Below, in pieces: positions 416-51,832 of a stretch of 64,000 bases of DNA. Where the stretch lies: the IMG/VR virus record IMGVR_UViG_3300035661_000005. The stretch is one strand, 5' to 3'. Under the pieces are notes generated by a model. That model had not been told where the DNA came from, did not search any database, and saw nothing but the letters and a program-made list of their open reading frames with translations. This DNA comes from a virus (taxonomy: Duplodnaviria > Caudoviricetes). A program made the translations under genes and the position numbers. Every line of letters starts with the position of its first letter. The stretch's first letter is position 1.

Positions 416-1396
416 ATGCCCGGTCCAGACCCTTCGCGGATGACAGCGGAAGAGGTGCTCGGCGAGATTCGCCAGCTCCGGGACAGCCTCCGCCGCGATG
501 CCCAGCGGCTCACGTCTCTGGGCCAAGTCCTCGCTCAGCGGGCCCGTCTTCAAGGGGGCCCCCACGGCCTCACCCCCGAGGAGGAGCCTGACCGGCCGAA
601 GCTCCTGGCGTGCGCCAGCGCCTGGTCCCGCACCGGGGGGATGGTGGACCAGGCCCTCGGCCGGGCGGCTATCTACGACCGGCTCCTCGTGCGGGGCCGT
701 GAGTATCGCCAGGAGGAGGCCCAGCGCCAGGCCGAGGCGGCGGCAAGACGGGCCCGGACCGAGGAGAGGCGGGCGGTGGCCCGTCCGTCCCCATTTGATG
801 ACCTTATGAGCCTTTACGGTGAGGAGCTGATCGATGCCCCCACGCCCTTACACCTCGGCCCGGCCCGTTCAGGCTGCCCTCGACCCCCACATGCGTCGGA
901 ACCACCCCCGGGTGGCGTCCCCTGTGCAGATGATGCCCCTGACCCCCCTGGAGCGTCGGGCTCGCCGCGAGGGTCTGGCAGGGAACACCCGCACGGCGAA
1001 CTACGCCGGGGGCATGGGCGGCTACACGAGTCTGGCCCAGAACGGGTCCTTCTTCTCCCCCCAGCTCTCGACCGACTTCCTGGAGCTGCCGCAGTCTCTC
1101 CGCGAGAAGCGGGAGATCTACCGGCACTTCTACAACTCCGAGCCCATCGTCGCGCAGTCGATCGACCTGCACACGGAGCTGCCGTTGTCGAAGGTGCGAC
1201 TGGCGGCCCCGAAGCCCATCTCGCACCCCGAGGGCTTCACGAGCCCCGAGCAGTACGGCAAGTACATCCTCTCCTTCTTCCAGAAGATGTCGAAGAAGGT
1301 CAAGCTGTTCCAGCGGCTGGCGACCATCGTCCGCCACTACTGGCTGGACGGCAACGTCGCCATCTTCGCCGAGGACCACCAGGTCCCGCTTCCTGA
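416..1396 (+). CDS. Hypothetical helical/coiled-coil protein; only the first ~140 aa look genuine
   Basis: ATG 3 nt after the previous stop. The N-terminal part is helical (EIRQLRDSLRRDAQRL; EEAQRQAEAAARRARTEE). The rest overlaps the portal gene out of frame and reads like a shadow frame. Confidence 0.5.
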   Translation: MPGPDPSRMTAEEVLGEIRQLRDSLRRDAQRLTSLGQVLAQRARLQGGPHGLTPEEEPDRPKLLACASAWSRTGGMVDQALGRAAIYDRLLVRGREYRQEEAQRQAEAAARRARTEERRAVARPSPFDDLMSLYGEELIDAPTPLHLGPARSGCPRPPHASEPPPGGVPCADDAPDPPGASGSPRGSGREHPHGELRRGHGRLHESGPERVLLLPPALDRLPGAAAVSPREAGDLPALLQLRAHRRAVDRPAHGAAVVEGATGGPEAHLAPRGLHEPRAVRQVHPLLLPEDVEEGQAVPAAGDHRPPLLAGRQRRHLRRGPPGPAS

Positions 1397-4208
1397 CGAC
1401 GTCGGCTACGAGCCCAAGAAGGTCCGCCGCAGCGTGGTTGACGAGCACGGGGCCCGCGAGGTCGACGACGTCGAGAGGGTGGAGAAGGACACCCGCGAGG
1501 AGGAGGAGGACGCCTACTACCGGAAGCACTACAAGGGGTGGGACCGGATCATCATTTTCCCGATCGACCAGGTCAAGGTCACGACCTTCGACTTCTCGGA
1601 CAAGATGCGGGTCGAGCTGATCCCCTCGGACCGGGATCGGGCCCTCATCCAGCAGGCGAAGATGGGCGACCCCATTGCGTCGGAGATGGTCGAGGAGATC
1701 CCTGCCGAGATCCGGGACTACATCGAGAACGGGCACCTGATCCCCCTCGGCGACGACCCGGACGAGGGGTCCTTCGTCCACATGCTCTCGGCCCGGAAGG
1801 GTGCGGGGGACGAGCTGGGCCAGTCCATCCTCGACCGCTGCCACATCGCAGGCACCCCGGTTCTCGTGAAACGGGACGGGGTGGTTCGGCAAGTCCACAT
1901 CGAGGATCTCGATCCCGACACGGATCGAGTGCTTTCGCACACGGGGGCGTGGCGTGAGTTCGAGGTCGGTGTCCGTCCCGTGGCGGAGGAGATCGCGCTT
2001 CTTCACGTCGCCAAGATCGAGCCGCCAGTGGGCTGCACGAAGGACCACAAGTACCCCGTGCTTCGCGACGGGTCCGTGGTCGAGCTTCCTGCGGAGGACA
2101 TCCGGGCTGGGGATTACCTTCAGGTCGCGCAGGTCCCGCTTTCTGGTTCGTTGGTTGGGGGCGTCGATCTCGCGGAGTTCATGCACGGGGTCGAGGCCGA
2201 CTACCGTGCCCGTCGCTCTGGAGGTACCTCAGACCTTCGCTGGGAGGTCGTGGACCGGACGACGCACTCGTTCACGGTCAGGTATGAGAAGGAACAGACG
2301 GACCCTCGAAAGGTCGGTCGCACCAACGACCTCAACGTCATCCTCGAATGGGCATCGACGCTCACGGAGCCCGTGGCGATGCGTTCGGCCGAAGTCTGCG
2401 AACGCTTCGGCCTTCATCCGGTCACGCTCAAGGAGATCCGGTCCCAACTCGTGTCGCTCGGGTACGGGGTGACGGTCGCCAAGGACAAGACCCTCAACTT
2501 CCCGCCCAACAAGTCCGGCTTGAAAGCCCCGACGAGCGCCGCCCACACCAAGACCTTCCCCATGCGGGTGCTCCCGCTGGTTGCAGGTTTCGGGTACTTC
2601 CTCGGTTTCTGGCTCGGGGACGGGCACATCACGAAGCACGAGGGGCTCGACTACGGTACGCTCGGGTTCACCTACGGCCCCAACGAGCCCGCGTCCGTTA
2701 AGGCGATCCAAGAGCAGATCAAGCCGATGCTCGACGTGCTCAAGGTCGTGTGGTCGGAGAGCCATGCTGGGGCTGGGGTCCACATGGACGGCTACCAGGA
2801 CGCTCTCGTGCGTTGGATGGCCGCAAATTTCGGGCACACGAGCGAGGACAAACACCTGCCCGCGTGGGTCTTCGACGCCAACAAGGGGTTCTTGCTCGGT
2901 CTCCTTCGAGGTTTCTGTGACTCCGATGGGGATGTCGTCCGCAAGAAAGACGGGAGCATCTGCGTCCGGTTCAACGGTACGAACCATGTGCTTATGGATC
3001 AGATTTTCTTGCTCTGCACGTCCCTCGGCATCCCGGTCTCCAAGACGAAGCCTACGAAGGAACGTTGGGTCAGGCAGGCGAACGGAGAGAGGGCTTGGGC
3101 GAAGCCCTTGCACTCCGTTCACTTTACGCATGGTCCTTCCGTCAAGACGTTCTTCGAGTCGGGTTTCCTTGCCAAGCGGCAAGATCCTGACGAGTGGAAG
3201 GACGGGCGCTCGGGGTCACGGCACGTCGAGCACGAGGGGAAGCTCTTCTACCGGGTGCAATCGGTCTCGACGGCCATGCACGAGGGGCCGGTCTACAGCC
3301 TCAACGTCCACGAAGACCACTCGTTTTTCGCTGGACTTTCGCGTACTTCCAACTGCCTTCGCACCCTGTACTACCGGGAGAAGCTCCGCCAGGCGCAGAC
3401 CCAGATCGCCAGCCGGGCGATGACCCCGAAGCGGATCATCTGGGCCGACGACCTCAGCGAAAACGACGTCGAGGCCCTTCGCGATCAGGTGGACTACGCC
3501 CTCGTCGACCCCGACTACTCGATCATCGTCAACTACGAGCTGCACTGGGAGGAGATGGGGAGCCGCGACAGGCTCCTCGACCTGTCCTCGGAGTACGAGA
3601 TCACGGAGCGCCACCTGCGCACCGGCCTGGGCGTGACCGAGAGCCTTCTCTCGGGCGAGACCCTCTACTCGGGCGACCGGCTCAAGCTCGAAGTGATCAA
3701 CCAGCGCTACCTGTTTCTGCGGGAGATCTTGCAGGAGTACGTCGAGGAGTACCTGTTCAAGCCCGTGGCCCGGCGCAAGGGCTTCATCGAACTCGACGAG
3801 TGGGGCGAGGAAGTGGTCCTCTACCCGTCCCTCAGCTTCACCCGCCTGCCGCTCCGGGACAGCCAGGACACGTTCGACGCGCTGTTCAACCTGTACCAGA
3901 AGGGGTCGGTCTCGATCGACGTCATCCTGGAGATGTTCAACATCGACCCGCACGACACCCGGCAGAAGCTCGAAAAGGATATGTTCACCGTCAACGACGC
4001 CACCTTCAACGAGGTGACGCGGGCCATCTACGGTGAAGTGGGCCGGATGCTCGCCGAGGGGTCGGACGTCAAGGAGAAGATCGCCACGAGCCTCGGTCTC
4101 ACCTTGACCCCCCCGCCGGCCGAGGGGGAGGACAGCAACCGCTTTGCCTCGACGAAGCCCCGGCCAAAGGCGGTCCCCTTTCCCCCGCCCCAGTCCCGCC
4201 GCGCCTAA
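834..4208 (+). CDS. Phage portal protein containing an intein (~619 aa after splicing)
   Basis: SD GAGGAG before ATG834. Portal-like motifs REIYRHFY..PIV..SIDLHTELPL, YWLDGN, LREILQEYVEEYLFKPV and LYQKGSVSIDVILEMFNID. Position at the front of the head module (protease, scaffold and capsid follow). Confidence 0.8.
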   Translation: MPPRPYTSARPVQAALDPHMRRNHPRVASPVQMMPLTPLERRARREGLAGNTRTANYAGGMGGYTSLAQNGSFFSPQLSTDFLELPQSLREKREIYRHFYNSEPIVAQSIDLHTELPLSKVRLAAPKPISHPEGFTSPEQYGKYILSFFQKMSKKVKLFQRLATIVRHYWLDGNVAIFAEDHQVPLPDDVGYEPKKVRRSVVDEHGAREVDDVERVEKDTREEEEDAYYRKHYKGWDRIIIFPIDQVKVTTFDFSDKMRVELIPSDRDRALIQQAKMGDPIASEMVEEIPAEIRDYIENGHLIPLGDDPDEGSFVHMLSARKGAGDELGQSILDRCHIAGTPVLVKRDGVVRQVHIEDLDPDTDRVLSHTGAWREFEVGVRPVAEEIALLHVAKIEPPVGCTKDHKYPVLRDGSVVELPAEDIRAGDYLQVAQVPLSGSLVGGVDLAEFMHGVEADYRARRSGGTSDLRWEVVDRTTHSFTVRYEKEQTDPRKVGRTNDLNVILEWASTLTEPVAMRSAEVCERFGLHPVTLKEIRSQLVSLGYGVTVAKDKTLNFPPNKSGLKAPTSAAHTKTFPMRVLPLVAGFGYFLGFWLGDGHITKHEGLDYGTLGFTYGPNEPASVKAIQEQIKPMLDVLKVVWSESHAGAGVHMDGYQDALVRWMAANFGHTSEDKHLPAWVFDANKGFLLGLLRGFCDSDGDVVRKKDGSICVRFNGTNHVLMDQIFLLCTSLGIPVSKTKPTKERWVRQANGERAWAKPLHSVHFTHGPSVKTFFESGFLAKRQDPDEWKDGRSGSRHVEHEGKLFYRVQSVSTAMHEGPVYSLNVHEDHSFFAGLSRTSNCLRTLYYREKLRQAQTQIASRAMTPKRIIWADDLSENDVEALRDQVDYALVDPDYSIIVNYELHWEEMGSRDRLLDLSSEYEITERHLRTGLGVTESLLSGETLYSGDRLKLEVINQRYLFLREILQEYVEEYLFKPVARRKGFIELDEWGEEVVLYPSLSFTRLPLRDSQDTFDALFNLYQKGSVSIDVILEMFNIDPHDTRQKLEKDMFTVNDATFNEVTRAIYGEVGRMLAEGSDVKEKIATSLGLTLTPPPAEGEDSNRFASTKPRPKAVPFPPPQSRRA
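1839..3353 (+). mobile_element. Intein (505 aa) with LAGLIDADG homing endonuclease, in the portal
   Basis: Block A C(1)HIAGTPVLV. Block B CTKDHKYPV. LAGLIDADG motifs YFLGFWLGDG and LLRGFCDSDG. C-terminal VYSLNVHEDHSFFAGLSRTSN followed by +1 Cys. The exteins rejoin as SILDR|CLRTL. Confidence 0.92.
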
Positions 4209-4217
4209 CCCTTCTAT
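4207..4217 (+). promoter_or_regulatory. Putative late-promoter motif AACCCTTCTAT
   Basis: Matches the WWYYYYYYTRT consensus and lies 15 nt before GTG4233 (SD GGAGG). Confidence 0.55.
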
Positions 4218-4232
4218 CCCCCCGCCGGAGGT

Positions 4233-7200
4233 GTGCGCGACATCGGGGCCACCAAGGACACTCACGAGCGGGAAGAGGCGGAGGCCGAGCGGCTGGTGCG
4301 CCCAGCGCCCAAGGTCAAGCCTCCCCGTGACGACGCGAAGCGGGAGCACATTCGGCCCGAGCGGGACCCCGACACGGACGGGGACAAGGACACCAAGACG
4401 GACCCCGACATGAGCCTGAACCGCAAGAAGGTCGCGGGCTCCATGGCGGAGCGTCTGGCGGCGGAGTGGGTCCGCGTCCGCAACAAGACCAAGGACGAGG
4501 TCCCCCGCGTCCACCCCGACACGCTCCGGGACGACCCAGACCTCTACGAGAAGGTCCCCGACAACGAGCCCCATCGGGATGACGGCATCCGGCCCCCGCG
4601 CAAGCTCCCCCGCGTCCACAAGCCCCACTGCCACAAGGACCCCCTCCCTCACCCGAAGTGGCCCGACCCGCGTCCCCAGCCCAAGGCGGCTCCTCGTCCC
4701 CCCATGCCCCCGGAGACGCCCAAGACGCCCGAGCCCGAGAAGCAGCCCAAGGTCAAGCCCCCGGGGTGGGTGCGGGAGCGTCGCAACCTCAAGGCGGCCC
4801 TGGTGGGGCGCTGGCTGCGGCAGGCGGCCGAGGAGGGGGAGGAGGACCTCGTCACCGTCCGGCGCAAGGAGGACGGCAAGGTGGTGCGGGTCAAGCCCGA
4901 CACCCTCAAGGAGACCCCGAGCGCTTACGAGCCGATCGACGAGGACGAGGAGGGCGACGAGGGGGAGGAGGACCTCGTCACCGTCCGGCGCAAGGAGGAC
5001 GGCAAGGTGGTGCGGATCAAGCCCGACACCCTCAAGGAGACCCCGAGCGCTTACGAGCCGATCGACGAGGACGAGGAGGGCGACGAGGGCGAGGATGAGG
5101 GGCCCGAGGACGCCCCGCCCGAGGAGCCCGAGAAGCCCTCCCCCAAGGATGACGCGAAGCCGGACAAGCCCCCGTCGGCGAGCCCGAAGGAGCTGTACGA
5201 GCGCGGGGAGCACATCCGCAACTTGCTCAAGGGGGACCCTGCCATGGAGTCCCGGTTCAAGGGTCTGAACGACCCGACGAACCCCTTGCGGGTCATCTCG
5301 GACAAGGTCCCGGCCGGGGCCCTCCTCGGGGGGGCCAAGATCCAGGGCATCGAGACCGTGTCGGACATCATCGAGGCCCTGGCGGTCCCGAAGCCCCCGC
5401 CCGAGGCCAAGCCCAAGCCCAAGCCCGAGCCCGAGGACGAAGATGCCGGAGGGGGGGACGGCAAGTCACCCAAGGGCAAGCCGAACCGGCCGGCGGTGAC
5501 CCGCCCCCCAGCCACACCCGAGGACAAGGCCCGGGCCCAGCGGGTGCTCATCGAGCGCCTCGGGCCCCACCAGGCCAGGAAGCTGCTCAAGTCGGGCCTG
5601 CATCCGCACGACGCCGAGACGGTGGCGGCGGCCTTCGACGTGGCGAAGCGGCGTGAGGTGCGGCCCTCGGACCTCGACGACTACGTCGACAAGTCCAAGG
5701 CATTCTTCCAGACCGACCCCGACAAGGTGGGTCCCCCGTCGCAGGGCAAGGACGCCAAGGGCGTCGTGAAGCCCTACAAGGAACTCACCCCCAAGGAGCA
5801 GGGGGAGGCATGGCAGGACCACCGCAACAAGGTGGTGGCCATGAGCCTCGCCGTGCGCCGGCAGGTCTTCGACAGCTACAAGCGCATGGGTGCCCCCAAG
5901 GCGCTCGCTCAGGCCATGGTGACGGCCCGGCTGGGCGGGGAGAAGGGTCTCGCGGACAAGGTCTTCTCGAAGGCCATGGCGGACCCTGACAACGGGATGT
6001 CTCCGGGCAAGGCGAAGCACCTGTTCGACAACGTGAAGGACCCGGCCACGCGGGAGGTGGCGGCGGCCTACCTCCAGGGGCGGTCGTACCAGGACGCGCT
6101 CCACACGTACCTCGACCCGTCCTCATCCAAGGCGTTCCACGAGCGGATGCCCGCGGGGCAGATCGCCGGCCGTCTCACGGAGGCCACGGGCTTTCTGCGC
6201 GGCCGGGACAAGGAGCTGCCCGAGGACGTGCCGAAGAGGAACCTGGGCCGGCTCTTCCGCACTCGGATCTACAACCGCCTCGCGGGCATGAACGCCAAGA
6301 AGGCGGACAAGCTCCTACCCTACCTCGACACGCTCGACGCCGAGGACTACCGCACCGACAAGAAGGCGTGGAAGAAGCAGCACAAGGGCTGGACCCAGGA
6401 GACGAAGGCCCGGGAGAAGAAGCGCCAGAAGCTCAAGGCGGAGGCCGACCGGGAGGCGGAGGCGTGGAAGGCCGGGGACCCGGCGAAGCGGAGCAAGGAC
6501 CCGCCCTTGCCGTTCGAGGAGCGTATCCGCCAGGCGAAACTGGACAAGAAGGATGACCCGGCCGAGCCCCCGAAGCCGCTCAAGCCCCCGCGGTACGAGT
6601 GGCGCCCGAAGTCCCAGGCGGAGGCCGAGAAGGACTCGAAGGACCTCTTCGACGACCTCGTGAAGAGCCTCGGGGGGGAGGGGAAGGAGCCGAAGACGAA
6701 GACGGCCTGTCTTCTTCTCGGTCGGACCCTTGCACTTTCTTCTTGTACCCCGCGGGTGACGATGACGCGCATCGATCGGACGGCGGTCTACTGGGGCGTG
6801 GACCCCTACCCCGAGGACCCGTCTCAGCCCCCCTACGCCTACCAGGGTTGGGAGCAGGCTCGCGCCCGGGACATGGGCGAGTCGGACTTCCAGGCGATCC
6901 TGACGGCCGCCAAGGAGCGGCTCCGGTCGCCCCCGCTGTCCCCCGTCCCCGAGGGGATGGTGCCGGACGCCCGCTACCGTGCGGCGCTCGACCTGGCCAT
7001 CCGGGAGACCGGTGGGGGTCGCTACTCGGTCGGGGTTCACCCGACGATCTACAACACGCTCCTCGCCCGGCTCGCACAGGTGCGGGACCCCGGCACCTTG
7101 CAGACCCTCAGGGAAGCGAGTGAATCCTCTTATCCCCCCGTTCAGGAGAAGACCATGAAGCCCTCCATCCGTCTCCGCGCGTTCGCCCAGAAGTTCGCCT

Positions 7201-7493
7201 CCGACCAGCCCGCCCTCGCCTACGACCTCATCGAGCTGGCGGACAAGTTCGCCGAGGACGAGCAGGCCCAGCAAGACCAGCAGGGTCAGGGTCAGCAGAA
7301 GCAGGGTGGCGAGATGCCCCCGGCGCTCAAGAAGCACATGGAGGAGAAGGCGGAGGGCAAGGGCGACCAGGACCAGGGCCAGGACAAGCAGGCGTACATC
7401 GCCCTCAAGACCGAGATCGTCAAGGTCGCCCACGAGAACCCCGCGATCCGCGCCGCCCTCCTGCCGGCCCTCAAGCGGATCAAGCAGGGCTGA
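4233..7493 (+). CDS. Large low-complexity charged protein; putative internal head polyprotein with nested in-frame starts at 6762 and 7155
   Basis: Lys/Glu/Pro-rich, in the head module, with many [KR]-x-A motifs. Ends in the amphipathic motif IALKTEIVKVAHENPAIRAALLPAL. Confidence 0.7.
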   Translation: MRDIGATKDTHEREEAEAERLVRPAPKVKPPRDDAKREHIRPERDPDTDGDKDTKTDPDMSLNRKKVAGSMAERLAAEWVRVRNKTKDEVPRVHPDTLRDDPDLYEKVPDNEPHRDDGIRPPRKLPRVHKPHCHKDPLPHPKWPDPRPQPKAAPRPPMPPETPKTPEPEKQPKVKPPGWVRERRNLKAALVGRWLRQAAEEGEEDLVTVRRKEDGKVVRVKPDTLKETPSAYEPIDEDEEGDEGEEDLVTVRRKEDGKVVRIKPDTLKETPSAYEPIDEDEEGDEGEDEGPEDAPPEEPEKPSPKDDAKPDKPPSASPKELYERGEHIRNLLKGDPAMESRFKGLNDPTNPLRVISDKVPAGALLGGAKIQGIETVSDIIEALAVPKPPPEAKPKPKPEPEDEDAGGGDGKSPKGKPNRPAVTRPPATPEDKARAQRVLIERLGPHQARKLLKSGLHPHDAETVAAAFDVAKRREVRPSDLDDYVDKSKAFFQTDPDKVGPPSQGKDAKGVVKPYKELTPKEQGEAWQDHRNKVVAMSLAVRRQVFDSYKRMGAPKALAQAMVTARLGGEKGLADKVFSKAMADPDNGMSPGKAKHLFDNVKDPATREVAAAYLQGRSYQDALHTYLDPSSSKAFHERMPAGQIAGRLTEATGFLRGRDKELPEDVPKRNLGRLFRTRIYNRLAGMNAKKADKLLPYLDTLDAEDYRTDKKAWKKQHKGWTQETKAREKKRQKLKAEADREAEAWKAGDPAKRSKDPPLPFEERIRQAKLDKKDDPAEPPKPLKPPRYEWRPKSQAEAEKDSKDLFDDLVKSLGGEGKEPKTKTACLLLGRTLALSSCTPRVTMTRIDRTAVYWGVDPYPEDPSQPPYAYQGWEQARARDMGESDFQAILTAAKERLRSPPLSPVPEGMVPDARYRAALDLAIRETGGGRYSVGVHPTIYNTLLARLAQVRDPGTLQTLREASESSYPPVQEKTMKPSIRLRAFAQKFASDQPALAYDLIELADKFAEDEQAQQDQQGQGQQKQGGEMPPALKKHMEEKAEGKGDQDQGQDKQAYIALKTEIVKVAHENPAIRAALLPALKRIKQG
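4833..5089 (+). repeat. In-frame 126-bp (42-aa) tandem duplication
   Basis: Copies start at 4833 and 4959. The unit is EGEEDLVTVRRKEDGKVVR(V/I)KPDTLKETPSAYEPIDEDEEGD, and I saw one substitution (GTC/ATC). Confidence 0.95.
6736..6746 (+). promoter_or_regulatory. Putative late-promoter motif TTTCTTCTTGT, intragenic
   Basis: Consensus match inside ORF 4233-7493, 15 nt before in-frame ATG6762. Confidence 0.5.
7123..7133 (+). promoter_or_regulatory. Putative late-promoter motif AATCCTCTTAT, intragenic
   Basis: Best-consensus match, followed by SD AGGAG (7144-7148) and in-frame ATG7155. Confidence 0.6.
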
Positions 7494-7528
7494 ACCCTCC
7501 CCCCGACTTGCACCGAAGGAACACGATC

Positions 7529-7966
7529 ATGCCGATCAAGATCGCAAAGGAAGACGCCCAGTCCCTGCTCCCCCGCCTCGACAAGATGGCCGGGTACATC
7601 CAGGCCAACTACAAGGCGTGGGGCTGCCCGGAAGCCGCCGCTCGTGACATGGTGGCCACGCTCGACAAGCTGGCCGACGAGATCGAGGTCGGGGCCTTCG
7701 GGGCCGAGTCCTTCCAGATCCGTCAGGTGGCCGAGGTGGTCGGGGAGACCGCGGCCTCCAAGGTCGCCTCCGATCTGGCCCAGCGCCGGGCGCAGGTGAT
7801 CCAGCAGGACAAGAACGAGTCCTACATGGGCACGTTCCGCAACCCGATGGCTCCCGTGCAGACCGAGGCCGACGAGCCCTACATGCGCCTCTACGGCGAC
7901 GACCAGTCGAGCGCCGTGATTCACGGCGAGTCGACGTCGGGCCGCGACCTCGCCCCGGGGCACTGA
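7529..7966 (+). CDS. Hypothetical head-module protein
   Basis: SD GAAGGA before ATG7529. Helical, with KIA/KLA/KVA motifs. Confidence 0.7.
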   Translation: MPIKIAKEDAQSLLPRLDKMAGYIQANYKAWGCPEAAARDMVATLDKLADEIEVGAFGAESFQIRQVAEVVGETAASKVASDLAQRRAQVIQQDKNESYMGTFRNPMAPVQTEADEPYMRLYGDDQSSAVIHGESTSGRDLAPGH

Positions 7967-7969
7967 ACC

Positions 7970-8680
7970 GTGATCGACTACTGGAAGCTCACCAAGGACT
8001 TCTCGCCGGGCGATAGCGTCCAGAAGTTCATGCCCGGGGACCCCGGGGGCCTGTCGCCCTTCGTGGGCCGCGTCACGGAGGTCCTGCGGGGTCTCGGGTA
8101 TGTGGACGTCCAGTGGCCCTTCGGGGTGGAGCGGGTGCTCCCCGACGAGGTGGTGCGGATCAACCCCGACCTCCAGCGCTACCTGCCGCCCACCCTGAAC
8201 CAGAGCTATTCGAGCTACGACACCCGGCTGGCGTCCGGGGCCAAGCTGTGGCGCACGGTGGAGGTCCCCCAGGGCTTCCACCGTGACCTCGCCCGGCTCT
8301 GGGCCAAGGGCGCCTCGGACGTCATGGCTTACGACGAGCTGTGGACGAGGCACACCCCCCTCGGCGCCGACGACGAGGCGATCAAGGACGAGGTGTCGAA
8401 GTTCTACCTGGCAGCCGCCAACCTGGACGAGCTGCGCCTCCGCACCCACGCCCACAAGACGGCGGCCTACTGGGCGGCACAGAACCGGCAGTACCGGGTC
8501 ACCTCGGACGAGGTCAACGCCCGCAAGCCCTCGTGCCCCAAGTGCGGGACCCGGATGCGGAAGACCACGTACAAGATGGACCAGGGGGCGAGGGTGCGCC
8601 TGTGGGGATGCCCGAAGGACCTCACCTTGATCAAGACGACGGACCTCCTCGGACCCGGCGGCGAGCCGGTGGAGTGGTGA
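7970..8680 (+). CDS. Hypothetical protein with an N-terminal SH3-like barrel and a C-terminal Cys ribbon
   Basis: FSPGDSVQK...FVGRVTEV..GLGYVDVQWPFGVERV resembles an SH3/KOW-like barrel. CPKCG...WGCP may be a Zn ribbon. RLAS and KTAA separate the two parts. Confidence 0.6.
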   Translation: MIDYWKLTKDFSPGDSVQKFMPGDPGGLSPFVGRVTEVLRGLGYVDVQWPFGVERVLPDEVVRINPDLQRYLPPTLNQSYSSYDTRLASGAKLWRTVEVPQGFHRDLARLWAKGASDVMAYDELWTRHTPLGADDEAIKDEVSKFYLAAANLDELRLRTHAHKTAAYWAAQNRQYRVTSDEVNARKPSCPKCGTRMRKTTYKMDQGARVRLWGCPKDLTLIKTTDLLGPGGEPVEW

Positions 8681-8683
8681 ACC

Positions 8684-11377
8684 ATGGCCTTCCGTAAGTT
8701 TGCCAACGCGACCATTGTCAAGCCCGACATCTCGTCGGCCGGGTGGGAGAACCTCCGGGTCCACGGGAACAAGCAAGCCTCCCGGATCGTACTCGACCAG
8801 TACGACCCCAGTGAGTTCATGCTCACGCACTGCACGATCGTCGCTTCGGTGGACACGGAGGTGTCCCCGGAGCCGGTCGGTCGTCAGATGGTGGACGGCT
8901 TCGAGGTCGACCGGCGCTACCCCGACTGGCTGGTGACGCCCGCGACGTCCAAGTACGTCAACAACAACAACGACTGCTGGGAGCGCAAGCTGCTCCTCGC
9001 GTGCTTCAAGACCTTCATCGGCGGGGAGAACTACGTCGAGCACGTCCAGATCCCCGAGCTGAGCAAGGGCAAGATCCTGGACGCCGCCAGCCGGGACATC
9101 GGGGACTCGATCTACATCGACATCCTGATCGCGACGGCCCGGAAGTTCCGCCCCCTGATCTCCTCGATCCAGCGGCGGGAGCTGAAGACCCTCAGCATGG
9201 GCTGTTTCCTCCCGGGGACTCCCGTCACGATGGCCGACGGCACTCGTCTCCCCATCGAAGAGGTTCGACCCGGTGCGATGGTTCTGACCCACAAGGGCAG
9301 GGCTCGCGAGGTGCTGAACCAGCAGATCCGTGGTGGTCGCTGGCAGATGCGACGGATCAAGGTCAAGGGGGTGCCGGATGCCATCGAGGCCACAGGCACA
9401 CACCCGTTCTTCGTCCTCCGCCCGGCGTCTGTTTGCGGGTGTGGGTGTGGGGAGGCTCTTTCGACGAAGGATGCTGACCCCGTTCGTCGGATGACCAAGC
9501 GGTTCAAGGGGGGTCATGACAAGCGTGTGCTCAACCCGAACGGCAGCTACTCCCTCGACGAATACAAGGCTCGCCAGGAGAAGCTCACGGAGATCCAGAG
9601 CCTCAAGGTCGAGAAGGTTCGTGCCGACGAATTGCGAGTGGGGGACTATGTGGTCTTCCCGAAGCTCGACTCTGATGTGATCGGTGACCCAGGGCCCGCC
9701 AAGGCTCGGCTCCTCGGGTACTTCCTGGCCGAAGGCAGCTTCATCAAGAGCAAGGGTGTGCCGTCCGAGGTGCAGTTCAACTTCTCCTTGGCTGAGAAGG
9801 AGACCCTCGTTGAAGAGGTTGTTGGGCTTCTTCGCGAGGAGTTCCCCGGTTGTGCCCCTTGGGTACAAGACCGTAACACGGCAACGGTACACGTCTCGGG
9901 GAAGGGCATCGCCGCTTGGTTCAAGCAGCATGGGGGTGAGTACTCCCACCAAAAGCGTCTGAGCCCCGAGGCCATGCAGTGGTCAGTCGAATCCCAGGCG
10001 CATTTGCTTGGGGCTTGGCTCAACGGGGACGGTCACAAGCACAGCGGCGGGCACTCGGTGGGTACGACCACCTCCTACGACCTCATGTGCCAGCTTCATA
10101 CGCTGGCGGTACGAGGCGGCATCCCGGTGTGGGCAGACTGCGTGTTTGGGGGCCGAACGGTGACTTTCGCCGAGGCCGTGGTCAACGGGCAGGCACTTCG
10201 TCACGACGAGACGGGCAAGCTCGCGGCCTTCAACATCTACTTCCCCCAATCGTCTTCGGCGATGTTGATGGGGGCGTCCGCCAAGGCCCCACGCGAGGGT
10301 TCTCGCAAAAAGCACCAGCATCTCCGGGCACTCGACGACAAGGTCATCTTCCCGATCACCAGCATCGAGTCCTTCGTGTACGAGGGCTTCGTCCACGACA
10401 TCGAGGTCGAGGAAGACCACTCGTATCAGGTGCATGGCTTCGGGGTCTCCAACTGCTCGGTCGAATTCACGATCTGCACTCGCTGCGGGAACGTGGCTTA
10501 CGACGAGACGCAGCTCTGCCCGCACATCAAGTACTTCAAGGGCAACAAGTTCATCGACGACCACGGGGTCGAGCGCAAGATCGCTGAGCTGTGCGGCCAC
10601 ATCAACGAGGAGCCCGGTTCGGTCAAGTTCATCGAGGGCTCCTGGGTTGCGAACCCTGCCTTCGAGGGCGCCGTCCTACGCTCGATCCTATCGGCCGAGG
10701 ATGTGCCCGACCTCGATCGCAAGATCCAGGTCGCCTTCTCGCAGCCGGCGCGGGTCACGGACCCGGCCATCATTCAGAAGGCTGCTCGTCGCCTCTTCGC
10801 GCAGGATGAATTCCCGGGTGTCGATCAGAACGGCGGGGATGCCCCCAAGAAGGATGAGGACCCGCTCGACAAGATGGTCGACACGCTGGCGGATGCGCTG
10901 CGTGAGCGGGCCATGGAGAAGGTCCGCAGTCAGATCAGCAAGGACGATGCGGCTCGGGCACTCCCGGATGAGAACCGGAACACGACGCTCATCAAGGATG
11001 CCTTCAAGCACCCGGAATGGCGGAACATCGCTCGGGCCGTCATGGGTTCGGTCCGGGATCCGAAGGTCGCCCGCAAACTCCTCCTCGGGATGATTCTCTA
11101 CAAGACCGGGGGCTGGGGTGCGGTTCGCGCCTCCAAGGCCCTCTCGGGCAAGGAGATTCTGGGGCTTGTCCGCCTGTTCGAGATGTCTTCGAAGCGCGCC
11201 TCGAAGGCCGGGGACTCCCGTCTTTATCGAGCGGTTGTGGCGGTTGGTGGAATCAGCAAGTACGTAGATGAGAAGAGCTACCTGGCGGCTTGTCGTCGGG
11301 TGGTTGGACGCGACCTCACGGACTCCGAGAAGGTGACCCTGATCTCGAAGGGCCATCTTTATTCTCTGGGGTCGTGA
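8684..11377 (+). CDS. Prohead/capsid maturation protease containing an intein (~480 aa after splicing)
   Basis: Lies between the portal and the scaffold/capsid genes. Motifs NNNNDCWERKLL..CFKTFIG..NYVEH, spliced TLSMG|CSVEFTICTRCGN (candidate catalytic Ser in SMG) and FIEGSWVANPAF, consistent with HK97/herpes-fold phage proteases. Confidence 0.7.
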   Translation: MAFRKFANATIVKPDISSAGWENLRVHGNKQASRIVLDQYDPSEFMLTHCTIVASVDTEVSPEPVGRQMVDGFEVDRRYPDWLVTPATSKYVNNNNDCWERKLLLACFKTFIGGENYVEHVQIPELSKGKILDAASRDIGDSIYIDILIATARKFRPLISSIQRRELKTLSMGCFLPGTPVTMADGTRLPIEEVRPGAMVLTHKGRAREVLNQQIRGGRWQMRRIKVKGVPDAIEATGTHPFFVLRPASVCGCGCGEALSTKDADPVRRMTKRFKGGHDKRVLNPNGSYSLDEYKARQEKLTEIQSLKVEKVRADELRVGDYVVFPKLDSDVIGDPGPAKARLLGYFLAEGSFIKSKGVPSEVQFNFSLAEKETLVEEVVGLLREEFPGCAPWVQDRNTATVHVSGKGIAAWFKQHGGEYSHQKRLSPEAMQWSVESQAHLLGAWLNGDGHKHSGGHSVGTTTSYDLMCQLHTLAVRGGIPVWADCVFGGRTVTFAEAVVNGQALRHDETGKLAAFNIYFPQSSSAMLMGASAKAPREGSRKKHQHLRALDDKVIFPITSIESFVYEGFVHDIEVEEDHSYQVHGFGVSNCSVEFTICTRCGNVAYDETQLCPHIKYFKGNKFIDDHGVERKIAELCGHINEEPGSVKFIEGSWVANPAFEGAVLRSILSAEDVPDLDRKIQVAFSQPARVTDPAIIQKAARRLFAQDEFPGVDQNGGDAPKKDEDPLDKMVDTLADALRERAMEKVRSQISKDDAARALPDENRNTTLIKDAFKHPEWRNIARAVMGSVRDPKVARKLLLGMILYKTGGWGAVRASKALSGKEILGLVRLFEMSSKRASKAGDSRLYRAVVAVGGISKYVDEKSYLAACRRVVGRDLTDSEKVTLISKGHLYSLGS
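9203..10453 (+). mobile_element. Intein (417 aa) with LAGLIDADG endonuclease, in the protease
   Basis: C(1)FLPGTPVTMADG. Block B ATGTHPFFV. LAGLIDADG motifs LLGYFLAEGS and LLGAWLNGDG. C-terminal VHDIEVEEDHSYQVHGFGVSN followed by +1 Cys. Confidence 0.93.
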
Positions 11378-11387
11378 ATCCTTCTAT
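11377..11387 (+). promoter_or_regulatory. Putative late-promoter motif AATCCTTCTAT
   Basis: Overlaps the protease stop codon and lies 33 nt before the scaffold ATG11421. Confidence 0.6.
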
Positions 11388-11420
11388 AAAACCTCAGACG
11401 ACGAGGAAACGGAGACGATC

Positions 11421-12764
11421 ATGCGCGAGCGCACCACTTGGAACCGTTCGGCCGCCACCCAGAAGAAGGCGGACCCGTACCTGATGAACCAGGATCACGT
11501 CAGCCAGCAGCCGAAGGCCGACGACTACGTGACCGGCGACCCCTCGACCTTCGCCGAGGATGTTCACCCGTCGACGGGCACCTGGAAGGCCGAGTACTCG
11601 GGCGGCGAGGTCAAGCGCAACGAGATCGGGATGCCGGAGGTCCGCAAGGACACCTTCAGTCACCCCGAGAAGACCGCCTCCGAGCACCGCATCCTCCTCA
11701 AGAAGGCGGACGTGGCCATCAAGGTCGCTTCCCGGATGCTCGGTGCCAACGCCCCCGAGGCGGCGGTCGAGGATCAGGCGGTCGCCCTGATGCACATGCC
11801 CGACGATGCCCTCATCAACACCTTCAACCGTCTCGCGGAGCAGACCGTTCCGGCGGCGGAGCAGCAGGCCATGCAGCAGCAGGCCATGCAGCAGCAGGCG
11901 TTCGAGCAGGCCCAGACGGCGTGCAAGCAGGCGATCGAAGCCGGCGACATGGAGGCCGCGCAGCAGGCGATGGACCAGATGCAGGCGGCCAAGCAGGCGC
12001 TCCAGGGCGGCCAGCAGGTCATGGCGAACCAGGGCCAGGGTCAGCAGGGCCAGGGTCAGCAGGGCCAGGCCGACAAGAAGCAGGCGAACCAGGGTCAGGC
12101 CAACCAGGGTCAGGGTCAGCAGGCCAAGGACGACCAGGCCGAGAAGAAGCAGGCCAACCAGGGTCAGGCAGAGCAGGGTAAGGACCAGCAGGGCCAGCAG
12201 AAGCAGGCCGAGCAGGGCCAGGTCAGCCAGGCCCAGGTCGCCCAGATGGTGCAGCAGGCGGTGCAGCAGGCGCTCGCCCAGCAGCAGCAGGCCCAGCAGC
12301 AGCAGCAGGCCCAGCAGCAGCAGGCCCAGCAGCAGCAGGCCCAGCAGCAGGTCGCCCCGGCGGCCCAGCAGCAGCAGGCCCAGCAGCAGGTCTCGGACGA
12401 CGCCCTCCTCGCCGACATGCTCGGTGAGGAAGTCCCCGTCGAGGTGACCTCGGAGGCCGACATCGAGATGGAGCCCGCTCCGATGGACATGGCCGACGCC
12501 GGCCTCGGTCCGGAGGACGAGGTGCTCATGCAGCTCTTCGCGGCCGACGAGGGCGCGCAGCAGGAGCCCGAGAAGAAGGATGACCAGGGTCAGGGCAAGA
12601 CGGCCGGTATGGCTCGTACGGCCTCGACCCGCACGGTCGGCACGCGTCCGACCCAGGGCGTCAGCCGTGTCGGCGGCGGCGTCGCGGGTCAGGGTGGCCA
12701 GGACGTCGGCAAGCTCGCGGCCCTGTGGCCCTCGGCTCCGGACGTCAGCGGCGCCTTCCGCTGA
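11421..12764 (+). CDS. Capsid scaffolding protein (Gln-rich)
   Basis: Sits between the protease and the decoration/capsid genes. Helical and low-complexity with an acidic stretch, and a short conserved-looking C-terminus (LAALWPSAPDVSGAF) like a capsid-binding tail. Confidence 0.65.
   Translation: MRERTTWNRSAATQKKADPYLMNQDHVSQQPKADDYVTGDPSTFAEDVHPSTGTWKAEYSGGEVKRNEIGMPEVRKDTFSHPEKTASEHRILLKKADVAIKVASRMLGANAPEAAVEDQAVALMHMPDDALINTFNRLAEQTVPAAEQQAMQQQAMQQQAFEQAQTACKQAIEAGDMEAAQQAMDQMQAAKQALQGGQQVMANQGQGQQGQGQQGQADKKQANQGQANQGQGQQAKDDQAEKKQANQGQAEQGKDQQGQQKQAEQGQVSQAQVAQMVQQAVQQALAQQQQAQQQQQAQQQQAQQQQAQQQVAPAAQQQQAQQQVSDDALLADMLGEEVPVEVTSEADIEMEPAPMDMADAGLGPEDEVLMQLFAADEGAQQEPEKKDDQGQGKTAGMARTASTRTVGTRPTQGVSRVGGGVAGQGGQDVGKLAALWPSAPDVSGAFR
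11860..12390 (+). repeat. Coding CAG-rich simple repeats (poly-Q, QQQA and QGQ units)
   Basis: Repeated cagcagcaggcc, cagggtcag and aagaagcaggc(c/g)aaccag units inside the scaffold ORF. Confidence 0.9.
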
Positions 12765-12770
12765 GACCCA

Positions 12771-12805
12771 TTCAGGGGGAGTCCCCGCAACGGGGCTCCC
12801 CTGAA
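12771..12805 (+). other. GC-rich intergenic hairpin without a U-tract
   Basis: TTCAGGGGGAGTCCCCG-CAA-CGGGGCTCCCCTGAA, between the scaffold and decoration genes. Confidence 0.65.
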
Positions 12806-12887
12806 GACTTCACCGAGTCCGTCGGTGCCTAGATCGAATCAGAGCAGGTAGCACCCAAGTATTCGCCCATTCCCGTCAGGAGATCTC

Positions 12888-13514
12888 ATGACCCAGTACG
12901 CAATCGGCGGACAGTCCTCGGGTGACTACAAGGAGACCTCGGCCCGCGTCCAGCTTCTGCACGTCGTCACCCGCAACTCGCAGGGTGCTCTGACGCCAGA
13001 CGCCTTCTCGCAGGCCAACCCTCCTGTCGTCACCGCGTACAAGTCCACCACCCTCTCGAACGTCACCAAGGTCGGCGTGCTCGGCGGCACCGTCGCCTTC
13101 ACCCGTCCGGACTACGGCAACGGCTACCACGGTGGCCCGGTCAAGGTCGGCGGCGTCTACGTCGCGGGCCAGCAGCCCCTCGGCATCTTCCTCAACGACG
13201 CGATCGGCAACGCGTTCGAGAACACGCCCGGCGTGGCCTCGGGCAAGGGGCCGTACGTCTGCGGCAGCGGCTCCTGCGTGGCCGTCTCCGTCTACGAGAC
13301 GAAGGTGCAGATCGGCGGCGGCGCCGGCAACCCGCTCACGGCCTACGCCCCGGGTGACAAGCTGTACGCCTCGGTGAACGGCCTGCTCACCAACCTCTCG
13401 ACGGACGCCTACGAGTACAACGTCGCGGGCAACCCGGCGCCGACGCTCATGGGCATCGTCAAGGTCGCCCCCGATTCCAACTCGTCCCTCCTCGTCCTCG
13501 ACCTCCGCGTCTGA
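12888..13514 (+). CDS. Capsid decoration/cement protein (beta-rich)
   Basis: SD AGGAG, directly upstream of the capsid gene. Motifs PLGIFLNDA, YAPGDKLYASVNGLLT and MGIVKVAP...LVLDL fit lambda gpD-like beta-tulip decoration proteins (inference). Confidence 0.6.
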   Translation: MTQYAIGGQSSGDYKETSARVQLLHVVTRNSQGALTPDAFSQANPPVVTAYKSTTLSNVTKVGVLGGTVAFTRPDYGNGYHGGPVKVGGVYVAGQQPLGIFLNDAIGNAFENTPGVASGKGPYVCGSGSCVAVSVYETKVQIGGGAGNPLTAYAPGDKLYASVNGLLTNLSTDAYEYNVAGNPAPTLMGIVKVAPDSNSSLLVLDLRV

Positions 13515-13553
13515 GATCAACGAGAAGCCAGGCCAAGGAGAGGAAGCAAGAAC

Positions 13554-14435
13554 ATGGCTACCATGGTCTCGAACGAAACCAAGCAGCAGGTCATCAGCGA
13601 GTACATCCGCACGGCCGCCGGTCGTGCGAAGCTCGCCGCTTCGATGATCCAGCCCCTACGCCTCCGCCGCGACTACACCGCGGTCGGGCGCAAGACCTTC
13701 CTGGTCGAGCAGCTCCCCGACGGGGCGCTGCCGATCTACGACAAGGACCCGGACGTCACGGCGTACGTGGTCGGCGAGGAGGGTGAGAACATCCTCGCGA
13801 TCCAGAAGCCGCGCCGCGTGATCTTCCCGCTGTTCGAGGTCGCCTCGAACCCGGAGATCCCGCTCACGCAGATCAAGGAGCGCCGCTTCGACCTGATCGA
13901 GCGCGCCCAGGATCTCGCGAAGGCGCAGATCCAGGCCGCCGAGGACGAGCGCGTCTTCACGGTCCTCGACTCGATCGCCGTGTCGGGCTTCGACACGCTC
14001 CCGGGTCAGACGAACCCGGACGTGGCCGTGGTCGCCCCGATCTCGCCGAGCGCCCTCGCCGACGCCTTCGCCGAGATCGAGCGTCACGACCTGCGCGTGG
14101 CCAGGATCTACATGAACGCGACGGACTACGCGGACATCCGCAAGTTCGGCCGCGACATCCTGGACATCGAGAGCCAGGCGACGCTGCTCAAGACGGGTCT
14201 GCAGGCGAGCCTCTGGGGCGCCCAGATCATCACCAGCCGCCTCGTCCCGGTCGGCTACGTCTACATCTGCTGCGAGCCCGAGAACTTCGGTCGGTTCCCG
14301 GTCCGCACGGAGCTGACGGTCCTCTCGGCCGACGATCCGAAGGCCCGCACGATCGGGTTCTCGTGCTTCGAGAACATCGGCATCGGCGCCTTCAACCCGC
14401 GCGGCCTCACCCGCATGGTCGTGACCCGCGCCTGA
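13554..14435 (+). CDS. Major capsid protein, compact HK97 fold (293 aa)
   Basis: Strong SD, the most biased codon usage in the window, and a terminator downstream. Spine helix RFDLIERAQDLAKAQIQAAEDERVF, A-domain IYMNATDYADIRKF and LWGAQIITSRLVPVGYVY, C-terminal FENIGIGAFNPRG. Confidence 0.85.
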   Translation: MATMVSNETKQQVISEYIRTAAGRAKLAASMIQPLRLRRDYTAVGRKTFLVEQLPDGALPIYDKDPDVTAYVVGEEGENILAIQKPRRVIFPLFEVASNPEIPLTQIKERRFDLIERAQDLAKAQIQAAEDERVFTVLDSIAVSGFDTLPGQTNPDVAVVAPISPSALADAFAEIERHDLRVARIYMNATDYADIRKFGRDILDIESQATLLKTGLQASLWGAQIITSRLVPVGYVYICCEPENFGRFPVRTELTVLSADDPKARTIGFSCFENIGIGAFNPRGLTRMVVTRA

Positions 14436-14465
14436 TCCGGCCGGGCCTACGGGCCAGTGAGTGTT

Positions 14466-14506: not shown

Positions 14507-14594
14507 GTCTCAGTGTCTCCCAAGCCCCTATCGCCCGAACAGCGGAACATCTAGGATCCTGTCGAATTCGATCCCAGGTGCCAGTCCGACCATT

Positions 14595-14605
14595 TTTTCA
14601 CTTAT
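14595..14605 (+). promoter_or_regulatory. Putative late-promoter motif TTTTCACTTAT
   Basis: Near-consensus copy after the terminator, 52 nt before ATG14658. Confidence 0.4.
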
Positions 14606-15776: not shown

Positions 15777-15780
15777 AGCG

Positions 15781-51821: not shown

Positions 51822-51832
51822 AATCCTCTTGT
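51822..51832 (+). promoter_or_regulatory. Putative late-promoter motif AATCCTCTTGT
   Basis: Best-consensus match, followed by SD AGGAG and the helicase ATG51851. Confidence 0.6.

What the first reader, a model, noticed from the sequence alone, without database searches (positions are those of the whole stretch)
4233..7493. One ORF with two nested late promoters and in-frame starts, each placed just after a [KR]xA site
Seen: inside the 1086-aa ORF, TTTCTTCTTGT (6736-6746) precedes in-frame ATG6762, and AATCCTCTTAT (7123-7133) plus SD AGGAG precedes in-frame ATG7155. Both lie in short AT-richer linkers with odd codons (KTA-CLLLGRTLALSSCTPRVT-M; REA-SESSYPPVQEKT-M) directly after a [KR]xA motif. 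Inference: three genes fused in frame. Each module can be made separately from its own promoter or as part of a polyprotein, whose promoter-encoded linker is trimmed by the head protease. Stop codons could be lost without cost if proteolysis defines the ends. This would allow independent control of module stoichiometry.
Basis: partly seen in the sequence, partly recalled or inferred. Interest (0 to 1): 0.75.

Follow-up and report, generated by a model that had tools for sequence, protein, structure and literature searches.

The report
Nested head gene with embedded promoters
One long head gene of an uncultivated giant phage carries, inside its coding sequence, two copies of the phage's own gene-start signal, each followed by a conserved start codon. 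It therefore very probably makes three proteins that share one tail, a known trick of lambda and the herpesviruses, here in an unknown gene family with unusually clear sequence evidence.

Summary
ORF 4233-7493 is uninterrupted, and independent metagenome contigs reproduce both linkers without stops.

Comparison with about 40 related loci and 150 cluster representatives shows that the continuous frame is the family norm, not a recent loss of stops. At junction 1 the motif wTTCTTCTTAT is fixed at synonymous sites (Ser TCT 45/46, Tyr TAT 28/28). It lies 15 nt (78 of 101) or 18 nt (13 of 101) before a Met present in 120/120 representatives. At junction 2, AATCyyCTTAT, a GGAGAGG-type ribosome site and an invariant ATG are conserved.

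The same motif lies upstream of true genes. It precedes only some of them (orthologues of 11421 and 14658), not MCP, 7970 or 8684, so it behaves like an operon-start promoter.

The next gene (7529-7966) is a separate gene here. In about half of the relatives it is fused in frame after module 2 and still keeps its own ribosome site and ATG.

Best reading: nested 3'-coterminal isoforms of 1086, 243 and 112 aa, as in herpesvirus UL26/UL26.5, lambda C/Nu3 and T4 gene 49.

Modules 2 and 3 were never found as stand-alone genes. Protease trimming at [KR]xA is only enriched, not shown. No RNA data exist.

The scan has found the same kind of nested gene before on other DNA, in protease-scaffold-capsid genes.

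The parts
4233..7493 (+). Long ORF (1086 aa) between portal and the rest of the head module. It has an acidic low-complexity N-terminus with a tandem repeat, a confident all-alpha central domain (about aa 430-800), module 2 and module 3A.
   Evidence: No Pfam or PHROG match. There are 310 homologues, mostly 900-1400 aa and aligned across both junctions. The central domain has pLDDT 83 and no fold match.
4207..4217 (+). Variant motif AACCCTTCTAT upstream of the gene's own start, overlapping the portal stop. It is followed by CCCCCC and GGAGG, as at 7123.
   Evidence: Weak variants occur at the same place in 4 of 29 relatives.
6699..6707 (+). K-T-A just before linker 1; candidate processing site.
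   Evidence: K[TQS]A[SA] is conserved at amino-acid level with varying codons.
6736..6746 (+). Embedded motif 1, TTTCTTCTTGT (encodes L-S-S-C); candidate promoter.
   Evidence: Synonymous sites are fixed in relatives. Third-position information is 1.45 against a mean of 0.64. Spacing to the ATG is 5 codons in 78 and 6 codons in 13 of 101 representatives.
6762..7154 (+). Module 2 (aa 844-974), starting with a conserved Met; helical. The predicted nested product runs 6762-7493 (243 aa).
   Evidence: A Met is present within 30 aa upstream of the module-2 signature in 120/120 representatives. Alignment A1. Model.
7110..7118 (+). R-E-A at the end of module 2 (conserved ...TLLTV-REA); candidate processing site.
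   Evidence: REA is the commonest tripeptide there: 22 of the 58 representatives in which that tripeptide could be read (103 examined).
7123..7133 (+). Embedded motif 2, AATCCTCTTAT (encodes E-S-S-Y); candidate promoter. It matches the copy at 51822 at 10 of 11 positions (A/G at position 10).
7144..7148 (+). Shine-Dalgarno AGGAG, 6 nt before ATG 7155.
   Evidence: A GGAGAGG-type purine run is conserved 6-10 nt before the ATG in relatives.
7155..7493 (+). Module 3A (aa 975-1086): invariant Met, helices, a Q/E-rich linker and a C-terminal helix-turn-helix. Predicted nested product of 112 aa.
   Evidence: M132 is invariant in 17/17. Model.
7529..7966 (+). Next gene ('module B', 145 aa). It is separate here but fused in frame after module 2 in relatives that lack module 3A.
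   Evidence: 45-50% identity to the fused C-terminal modules, E 1e-34 to 1e-43. States per locus. GAGGG-N7-ATG is kept in the fused forms.
11377..11387 (+). Motif copy AATCCTTCTAT upstream of gene 11421-12764.
   Evidence: Orthologues carry a motif in 18/48 loci against 2.2% background.
14595..14605 (+). Motif copy TTTTCACTTAT, after the hairpin and T-run that follow the capsid gene and before gene 14658.
   Evidence: Orthologues carry a motif in 21/42 loci.
51822..51832 (+). Motif copy AATCCTCTTGT, after a hairpin and before an intein-bearing UvrD-type helicase.

Best explanation
ORF 4233-7493 is a nested, 3'-coterminal gene of the head module of a clade of uncultivated giant phages.

Shown by sequence comparison:
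- The frame is continuous in all relatives examined.
- Two short linkers inside it carry the clade's gene-start motif WWTCYTCTTRT, written in the codons TCT-TCT-TAT/TGT.
- Each motif is followed at a fixed distance by a conserved ATG. The second ATG also has a conserved Shine-Dalgarno sequence.

Inferred:
- The motif is a promoter read by an unidentified phage or phage-modified RNA polymerase. Transcripts starting just downstream of each copy would have short leaders.
- These transcripts would be translated from ATG 6762 (243 aa, module 2 + 3A) and ATG 7155 (112 aa, module 3A). The transcript from the gene's own upstream signal would give the 1086-aa protein.
- The internal promoters would also feed the downstream genes that lack the motif (7529, 7970, 8684).
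- All three isoforms share the helical C-terminal module. The rare long form, with its variable central domain, could therefore be carried into the prohead by the same contacts as the abundant short forms, and stoichiometry would be set by promoter strength. This is the logic of herpesvirus UL26/UL26.5 and lambda C/Nu3.
- Cleavage at the conserved K-T-A-[SA] and R-E-A-[SA] sites before each linker may separate the modules of the long form. This step is speculative.
For: - Continuity: the frame is continuous and in frame in about 40 loci. Of the 151 representatives retrieved (310 family hits), most are 900-1400 aa and aligned across both junctions. Independent contigs are identical across both linkers.
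- Nucleotide-level selection in motif 1: Ser is TCT in 45/46 and Tyr is TAT in 28/28. There is a peak of third-position conservation at the motif.
- Start codons: Met is present in 120/120 representatives, with 5-codon spacing in 78 and 6-codon spacing in 13 of 101. The module-3A Met is invariant in 17/17. SD plus ATG are conserved for module 3A and for fused module B.
- Same signal at real genes: 56 hits on the gene strand against 5 on the other in 1.17 Mb, many of them 15-36 nt before ORF starts. The top matrix hits in the window lie upstream of genes.
- Gene-specific distribution: orthologues of 11421 carry it in 18/48 loci and of 14658 in 21/42. MCP has 0/62, 7970 has 0/39, 8684 has 0/43, and the background is 2.2%. 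This fits operon-start promoters, not a general translation signal.
- Copies at 14595 and 51822 follow hairpins. No sigma-70-type promoter is found in 4000-16000.
- The linkers are disordered and the modules helical.
- Module B is a separate gene in some relatives and fused in others.
- Precedent: herpesvirus protease-scaffold genes have an independently transcribed in-frame short isoform, about 10-fold more abundant (PMC11565193).
Against: - There is no transcript, ribosome or peptide evidence, and no RNA run holds this sequence.
- The polymerase and the transcription start point are unknown.
- Motif 1 lies only 15 nt from its ATG with no Shine-Dalgarno sequence, so translation would need a very short leader.
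- Modules 2 and 3A never occur as stand-alone genes.
- Two relatives keep motif 1 without an ATG at the usual distance (L046 and L062).
- The motif with up to 2 mismatches is not enriched in the window by count alone.
- The function of every module is unknown.
Confidence: 0.65

Rival explanations
1. The motif acts on RNA, not DNA. It would be a processing site or a binding site for a translational activator that frees or activates the following start codon on a long polycistronic RNA. Nested isoforms are still made, but without internal promoters.
For: - The motif is pyrimidine/U-rich and always on the coding strand (56 against 5).
- It lies 15-50 nt before start codons, sometimes with a hairpin between motif and start.
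- No polymerase is known.
Against: - Most genes with good ribosome sites lack it: MCP 0/62, 7970 0/39, 8684 0/43.
- It reappears after the hairpin and T-run behind the capsid gene and after the hairpin before the helicase, where new transcription is needed.
- No Rfam family matches.
Confidence: 0.15
2. The embedded motifs are promoters only for the downstream genes (7529, 7970, 8684). The conserved Met codons are ordinary residues and no shorter isoforms of this ORF matter.
For: - The downstream genes lack the motif.
- Relatives L046 and L062 keep motif 1 without an ATG at 15-18 nt, and the next start is that of module B.
Against: - Met is kept in 120/120 representatives at a fixed 5-6 codon distance within an otherwise variable, disordered linker.
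- The module-3A Met is invariant with a conserved SD 6-10 nt upstream.
- Fused module B keeps GAGGG-N7-ATG across a deep clade.
Confidence: 0.08
3. There is no nested expression. The linkers are protein-level joints (a Ser-Ser-Tyr processing or docking site), or rare-codon pause sites that help the modules fold one after the other.
For: - The linkers lie between folded modules and are disordered.
- TCT and TAT are minority codons here.
- [KR]xA is enriched next to the linkers.
Against: - A peptide signal would not fix one of six serine codons in 45/46 cases. A pause site would not need this exact 11-mer, which also occurs in non-coding DNA before genes.
- It does not explain the conserved SD and ATG.
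Confidence: 0.05
4. Artefact: three separate genes joined by sequencing or assembly errors that removed stop codons.
For: None found.
Against: - Contigs of other studies are identical across both linkers (X2 6644-6908, X4 6725-7341).
- The same continuous frame is seen in about 40 loci and hundreds of database proteins.
Confidence: 0.01

Closest known systems
Herpesvirus protease-scaffold nested genes (HSV-1 UL26/UL26.5; cytomegalovirus UL80 family of four in-frame 3'-coterminal genes)
   Same: - One ORF holds shorter in-frame genes, each with its own promoter inside the longer coding region.
- All products share the C-terminus.
- The short form is far more abundant.
- The fusion carries the long form into the procapsid.
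- The protease cuts at Ala-Ser sites.
Sources: PMC11565193; Welch et al. 1991 as cited in PMC9732275; the cleavage consensus is from my own knowledge.
   Different: - No protease domain is found in the long form here, and there is no sequence or fold relation.
- The promoter is a phage-specific 11-mer written in Ser-Ser-Tyr codons.
- Bacterial translation signals are used.
- The module content varies between relatives.
Lambda C/Nu3 and Mu I/Z nested head genes (from my own knowledge)
   Same: - A head-module gene whose C-terminal part is also made alone from an internal in-frame start with its own ribosome site.
- The shared C-terminus is scaffold-like.
   Different: - There the internal start is used on the same mRNA, with no dedicated internal promoter.
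- The long form is the protease.
- There are two products, not three.
T4 gene 49 (two nested proteins, the shorter from a late promoter inside the gene), and T4 late genes whose hairpins hide the ribosome site on early transcripts (from my own knowledge; Barth et al. 1988)
   Same: - A phage late-type promoter without a -35 box lies inside a coding region and drives an in-frame shorter product.
- Motif-plus-hairpin arrangements also occur in this phage (39464-39507).
   Different: - Gene 49 is a nuclease, not a head gene.
- The T4 motif is TATAAATA.
- In T4 this is a single case rather than a layout conserved in hundreds of lineages.
Protease-scaffold-capsid fusion genes with conserved internal starts, found earlier by this scan on other DNA (e1-130035, e1-121172, e1-3291411)
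   Same: - One head gene with a conserved internal ribosome site and start, and sometimes a promoter.
- The inferred purpose is control of stoichiometry.
   Different: - A different gene family (no protease, no capsid domain).
- Two nested starts.
- The signal is a clade-specific promoter motif.
- The neighbouring gene is seen both fused and separate.
T4 prohead core genes 67 and 68 between portal (20) and protease (21) (from my own knowledge)
   Same: Position: the genes lie between the portal gene and a gene with weak prohead-protease leads (8684-11377). The products are helical, acidic and low-complexity.
   Different: No sequence similarity was detected. The T4 genes are small, separate genes.

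Membership tests
Nested in-frame 3'-coterminal gene with internal promoter (UL26/UL26.5 type, T4 gene 49 type) | One uninterrupted ORF that contains the shorter gene in the same frame | tested here: met
   Conserved in about 40 loci. Confirmed by independent contigs.
Nested in-frame 3'-coterminal gene with internal promoter (UL26/UL26.5 type, T4 gene 49 type) | Conserved internal in-frame start codon | tested here: met
   Met is present upstream of module 2 in 120/120 representatives. The module-3A Met is invariant in 17/17.
Nested in-frame 3'-coterminal gene with internal promoter (UL26/UL26.5 type, T4 gene 49 type) | Promoter inside the longer coding region, upstream of the internal start | tested here: inconclusive
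   At sequence level the internal sites carry the same motif as sites before real genes, with fixed synonymous positions and a gene-specific distribution. Promoter activity itself cannot be tested here.
Nested in-frame 3'-coterminal gene with internal promoter (UL26/UL26.5 type, T4 gene 49 type) | Separate transcripts and separate proteins observed | not testable with these tools
   No RNA run holds the sequence. No proteomics is available.
Protease-scaffold gene of Duplodnaviria (UL26, lambda C, Mu I) | The long form carries the capsid maturation protease domain | tested here: not met
   No protease family is found by Pfam or PHROG even at E=1. The central domain is all-alpha with no fold match. 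It therefore works like this family but is not filed as a member.
Lambda C/Nu3-type internal translation start | Shine-Dalgarno sequence at proper distance before the internal ATG | tested here: met
   Met for ATG 7155: AGGAG 6 nt upstream, conserved in relatives. Not met for ATG 6762, which has no SD.
Phage scaffolding / prohead core protein | Helical, extended, acidic; C-terminal helix-turn-helix; encoded in the head module | tested here: inconclusive
   The model is all-helical with disordered linkers and paired C-terminal helices. The position is between the portal gene and a putative protease gene. No fold match was found.
Proteolytically processed polyprotein | Conserved cleavage sites at module borders and a cognate protease | tested here: inconclusive
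   [KR]xA occurs in 99/120 against 42% background, and [KR]xA[SA] in 55% against 11%. The protease is only a weak lead (scores 0.80-0.82). Cleavage is not testable here.

The most novel reading that the evidence does not exclude
The Ser-Ser-Tyr-coding cassette would be a portable joint that is four things at once: a promoter, a start-codon context, a flexible linker and a neighbour of a protease site. With such joints, giant phages of this clade could build head-core genes combinatorially. Modules (variable cargo domain, module 2, an extra 100-aa module, 3A, B) would be inserted, deleted or fused in frame. Each arrangement would yield a ladder of 3'-coterminal isoforms with promoter-set stoichiometry. 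Stop codons between head genes would then be optional, and 'gene' and 'domain' interchangeable states.
Probability: 0.25. Interest if true: 0.75.

Novelty: new variant of a known kind. Interest (0 to 1): 0.55.

Why it matters
- It gives a sequence-level definition of a promoter-like motif for a large, uncultivated clade of giant phages. The capsid gene has 580 IMG/VR relatives, on contigs up to 528 kb.
- It shows how regulatory DNA can be written into codons and kept there for a very long time.
- It extends the nested-gene logic of lambda, T4 and the herpesviruses to a head gene with no protease or capsid domain.
- The same module is seen as a separate gene in some relatives and as an in-frame fusion that keeps its start signals in others. 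This is a natural experiment on how gene borders are gained and lost.
- Practically, gene callers will report one 1086-aa protein where three products and two promoters are likely.

Tried and rejected
- **RNA evidence:** no RNA holder is listed for window 4001-14000, so expression could not be examined.
- **Complex prediction:** capsid protein with module 3A gave no verdict.
- **Fold searches:** module 2+3A (pdb) and the central domain (pdb, viral, pdb_via_wide) gave only generic helical matches (best Z 7.6).
- **Family and similarity searches:** Pfam and PHROG found nothing for the ORF or its parts. Protein atlas found no usable hit for module 2+3A. No similar DNA is in GenBank phages. No Rfam family matches in 4000-8200.
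- **Whole genome:** not held.
- **Stand-alone relatives:** the short database proteins P0127 and P0141 turned out to be contig-edge truncations with the frame open upstream.
- **Repeated fusion of module B:** the tree needs 2 changes, but a single fused clade is not rejected (AU p 0.22), so independent fusions are not claimed. My first automatic fused/separate call was wrong for several loci and was replaced by the ORF-based states.
- **Simple pattern count:** counting with mismatches showed no enrichment and was replaced by a matrix trained on relatives.
Full report
**What is there**

The window is 64.5% GC and nearly all its genes lie on the + strand. Its left end is a phage head module:
- an intein-bearing portal at 834-4208 (phrog_16240);
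- the ORF in question at 4233-7493;
- a 145-aa gene at 7529-7966;
- a 236-aa gene at 7970-8680;
- an intein-bearing gene at 8684-11377, whose C-terminal extein has only weak leads to prohead protease families (scores 0.80-0.82);
- a Q-rich gene at 11421-12764;
- gene 12888-13514;
- an HK97-type capsid gene at 13554-14435 (phrog_2522, E 5e-53).

The capsid protein has 580 relatives at 90-95% identity in IMG/VR, on contigs up to 528 kb. Notes of this scan call the source an uncultivated giant phage. No whole genome is held.

**The observation**

- an uninterrupted 1086-codon frame;
- TTTCTTCTTGT at 6736-6746, 15 nt before the in-frame ATG 6762;
- AATCCTCTTAT at 7123-7133, AGGAG at 7144-7148 and the in-frame ATG 7155;
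- a local fall in GC at both linkers;
- K-T-A and R-E-A just before the linkers.

Contigs from other studies are identical across both linkers: X2 covers 6644-6908 and X4 covers 6725-7341, each with no differences. Lost stops through assembly error are therefore excluded.

**The continuous frame is the family norm**

An exhaustive HMMER search found 310 relatives. Most are 900-1400 aa and align across both junctions. In about 40 related loci fetched around the capsid gene, all parts lie in one stop-free frame.

Four short database proteins seemed to begin at module 2. The two I looked up lie at contig edges, with the frame open to the first base. So modules 2 and 3A were never seen as separate genes. 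The idea of a recent fusion by loss of stops does not hold for them.

**The joints are conserved as DNA**

At junction 1 the relatives read wTTCTTCTTAT, or variants such as TTTTACTTAT and TTCTACTTGT. The proteins are only 40-50% identical, yet:
- the two serine codons are TCT in 45 of 46 cases (19% of serine codons elsewhere in these genes);
- the tyrosine codon is TAT in 28 of 28 (29% elsewhere);
- third-position conservation peaks at exactly this spot.

I examined 120 cluster representatives, which are at most 50% identical to each other. All have a Met within 30 residues before module 2. Of these, 101 have the Ser-Ser-Tyr-like triplet, and the gap to the Met is five codons in 78 and six in 13.

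At junction 2, AATCyyCTTAT is followed after 21-30 nt by an invariant ATG (17 of 17). A GGAGAGG-type purine run lies 6-10 nt before it. Both linkers are predicted to be disordered, between helical modules.

**The same motif marks real gene starts, and only some of them**

A strict pattern finds 56 copies on the gene strand and 5 on the other in 1.17 Mb of window plus loci. Many lie in non-coding DNA 15-36 nt before the first ATG of an ORF. Copies with 18 nt or less to the start mostly lack a Shine-Dalgarno sequence. Those with 21 nt or more have one.

A matrix trained only on relatives' junctions puts its best window hits at:
- 14593 (after the hairpin and T-run behind the capsid gene);
- 15779;
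- 28614;
- 51820 (after a hairpin, before a UvrD-type helicase with an intein);
- 45759;
- 39462;
- the two internal sites.

The gene's own upstream region carries the variant AACCCTTCTAT-CCCCCC-...-GGAGG, much like 7123.

Across relatives the motif's distribution is gene-specific:

| Upstream of orthologues of | Loci with motif |
|---|---|
| gene 11421 | 18 of 48 |
| gene 14658 | 21 of 42 |
| capsid gene (MCP) | 0 of 62 |
| gene 7970 | 0 of 39 |
| gene 8684 | 0 of 43 |
| gene 12888 | 1 of 60 |
| random 90-nt windows (background) | 2.2% |

This is the pattern of an operon-start signal, not of a general translation signal. I therefore read the motif as a promoter. No sigma-70-type promoter is present in 4000-16000. 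'Late' remains a guess.

**Modules behave like genes**

Relatives differ by whole modules at the joints:
- Short forms of 315-392 aa lack the large central part.
- Three loci lack module 2.
- Four loci carry an extra module of about 100 aa between modules 2 and 3.
- The C-terminal module comes in two unrelated kinds.

The second kind of C-terminal module is homologous (45-50% identity, E to 1e-43) to the window's next gene, 7529-7966. In every locus with module 3A, that gene is separate and lies in any of the three frames. In every locus without 3A, it is fused in frame after module 2 and still has GAGGG-N7-ATG.

The fused forms make up a deep, well-supported clade plus a few others. A single origin is not rejected (AU p 0.22). 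Keeping a ribosome site and a start codon inside a fusion over such distances argues that they are used.

**Mechanism**

- **Shown:** the continuous frame; the embedded motif under nucleotide-level selection; the conserved starts; the shared motif at real genes.
- **Inferred:** transcription starts behind each motif; translation from 6762 and 7155 gives 243-aa and 112-aa isoforms beside the 1086-aa protein; the shared helical C-terminus docks all three in the prohead, so promoter strength sets the ratios. The internal promoters would also serve genes 7529, 7970 and 8684.
- **Speculative:** cleavage at K-T-A-[SA] and R-E-A-[SA]. These are conserved as amino acids with varying codons and are enriched (82% against 42% background; the four-residue form 55% against 11%). 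The motif is short, however, and the protease is not established.

**Comparison with the known**

The logic matches several known systems:
- Herpesvirus UL26/UL26.5 and the cytomegalovirus UL80 family. PMC11565193 reports independent transcription of the in-frame scaffold isoform at about 10-fold higher level across Herpesvirales. Welch et al. 1991, cited in PMC9732275, describes four in-frame 3'-coterminal genes.
- Lambda C/Nu3, Mu I/Z and T4 gene 49 (from my own knowledge).

It is not a member of the protease-scaffold family. No protease domain is found, and the confidently folded central domain (pLDDT 83) is all-alpha with no match.

This scan has already reported nested head genes with internal starts on other DNA, in protease-scaffold-capsid fusions. 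The kind is therefore known. What is new here:
- the gene family;
- two nested starts;
- a clade-specific promoter written as Ser-Ser-Tyr;
- a module seen both fused and free.

**Verdict**

This is a new variant of a known kind, of moderate interest. The decisive data are 5' ends of transcripts and N-termini of proteins, and these are missing.

Noticed in passing
window 834-4208, 8684-11377, 51848-56275: Three genes in one 64-kb window carry inteins: the portal, a gene with weak prohead-protease leads, and a UvrD-type helicase. Intein and homing-endonuclease domains were found by Pfam.
   Followed up: partly
window 13554-14435 and loci L001-L080: The capsid protein is 90-95% identical in 580 IMG/VR contigs whose GC ranges from about 50 to 69%. 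The neighbouring head genes are only 35-60% identical. This is an unusually frozen capsid protein.
   Followed up: no
relatives, just before junction 1 (e.g. L013 4400-4421, L030 3585-3606): Many relatives have the peptide A-[SA]-R-V-A-x-R-[FY] directly before the Ser-Ser-Tyr linker. It resembles the terminal tag [RK]V[VAM]AR[FY] that another reader noted on unrelated proteins of this genome. In the window it is degenerate (LLLGRTL).
   Followed up: partly
window 59022-59086: The best matrix hit in the window (CGATTCCACTTATCCC) lies inside ORF 58655-59617. It is followed 49 nt later by an in-frame ATG with a GGAAGG run before it. This is either the true start of that gene or another nested start.
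   Followed up: no
window 39462-39507: A motif copy (GTTTCTCTTGT) is followed by a 10-bp hairpin and by ATG 39505, which is in frame with the longer ORF called from 39376. The real start is probably 39505.
   Followed up: no
window 4860-5100 and 7298-7368: The N-terminal acidic region holds a tandem repeat of about 43 aa. Contigs of several runs show a length variant there (joint 5094/5062). They also show an in-frame 69-nt deletion variant in the Q-rich linker of module 3A.
   Followed up: no
window 5370-6760 (aa 380-843): The central domain folds with high confidence (pLDDT 83, pTM 0.69) into an all-alpha structure. It has no convincing match in PDB or in viral predicted structures.
   Followed up: partly
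L008 about 3990-4400, L011 about 4470-4800, L073, L074: An extra module of about 100 aa, with strands, is inserted in frame between module 2 and the C-terminal module in four relatives. It has no homologue in the window.
   Followed up: no
window 51811-51832: Before the helicase, the motif is directly preceded by GGTGTA. This resembles the CGGTGTA motif that another reader noted before replication genes, so two signals may overlap here.
   Followed up: no
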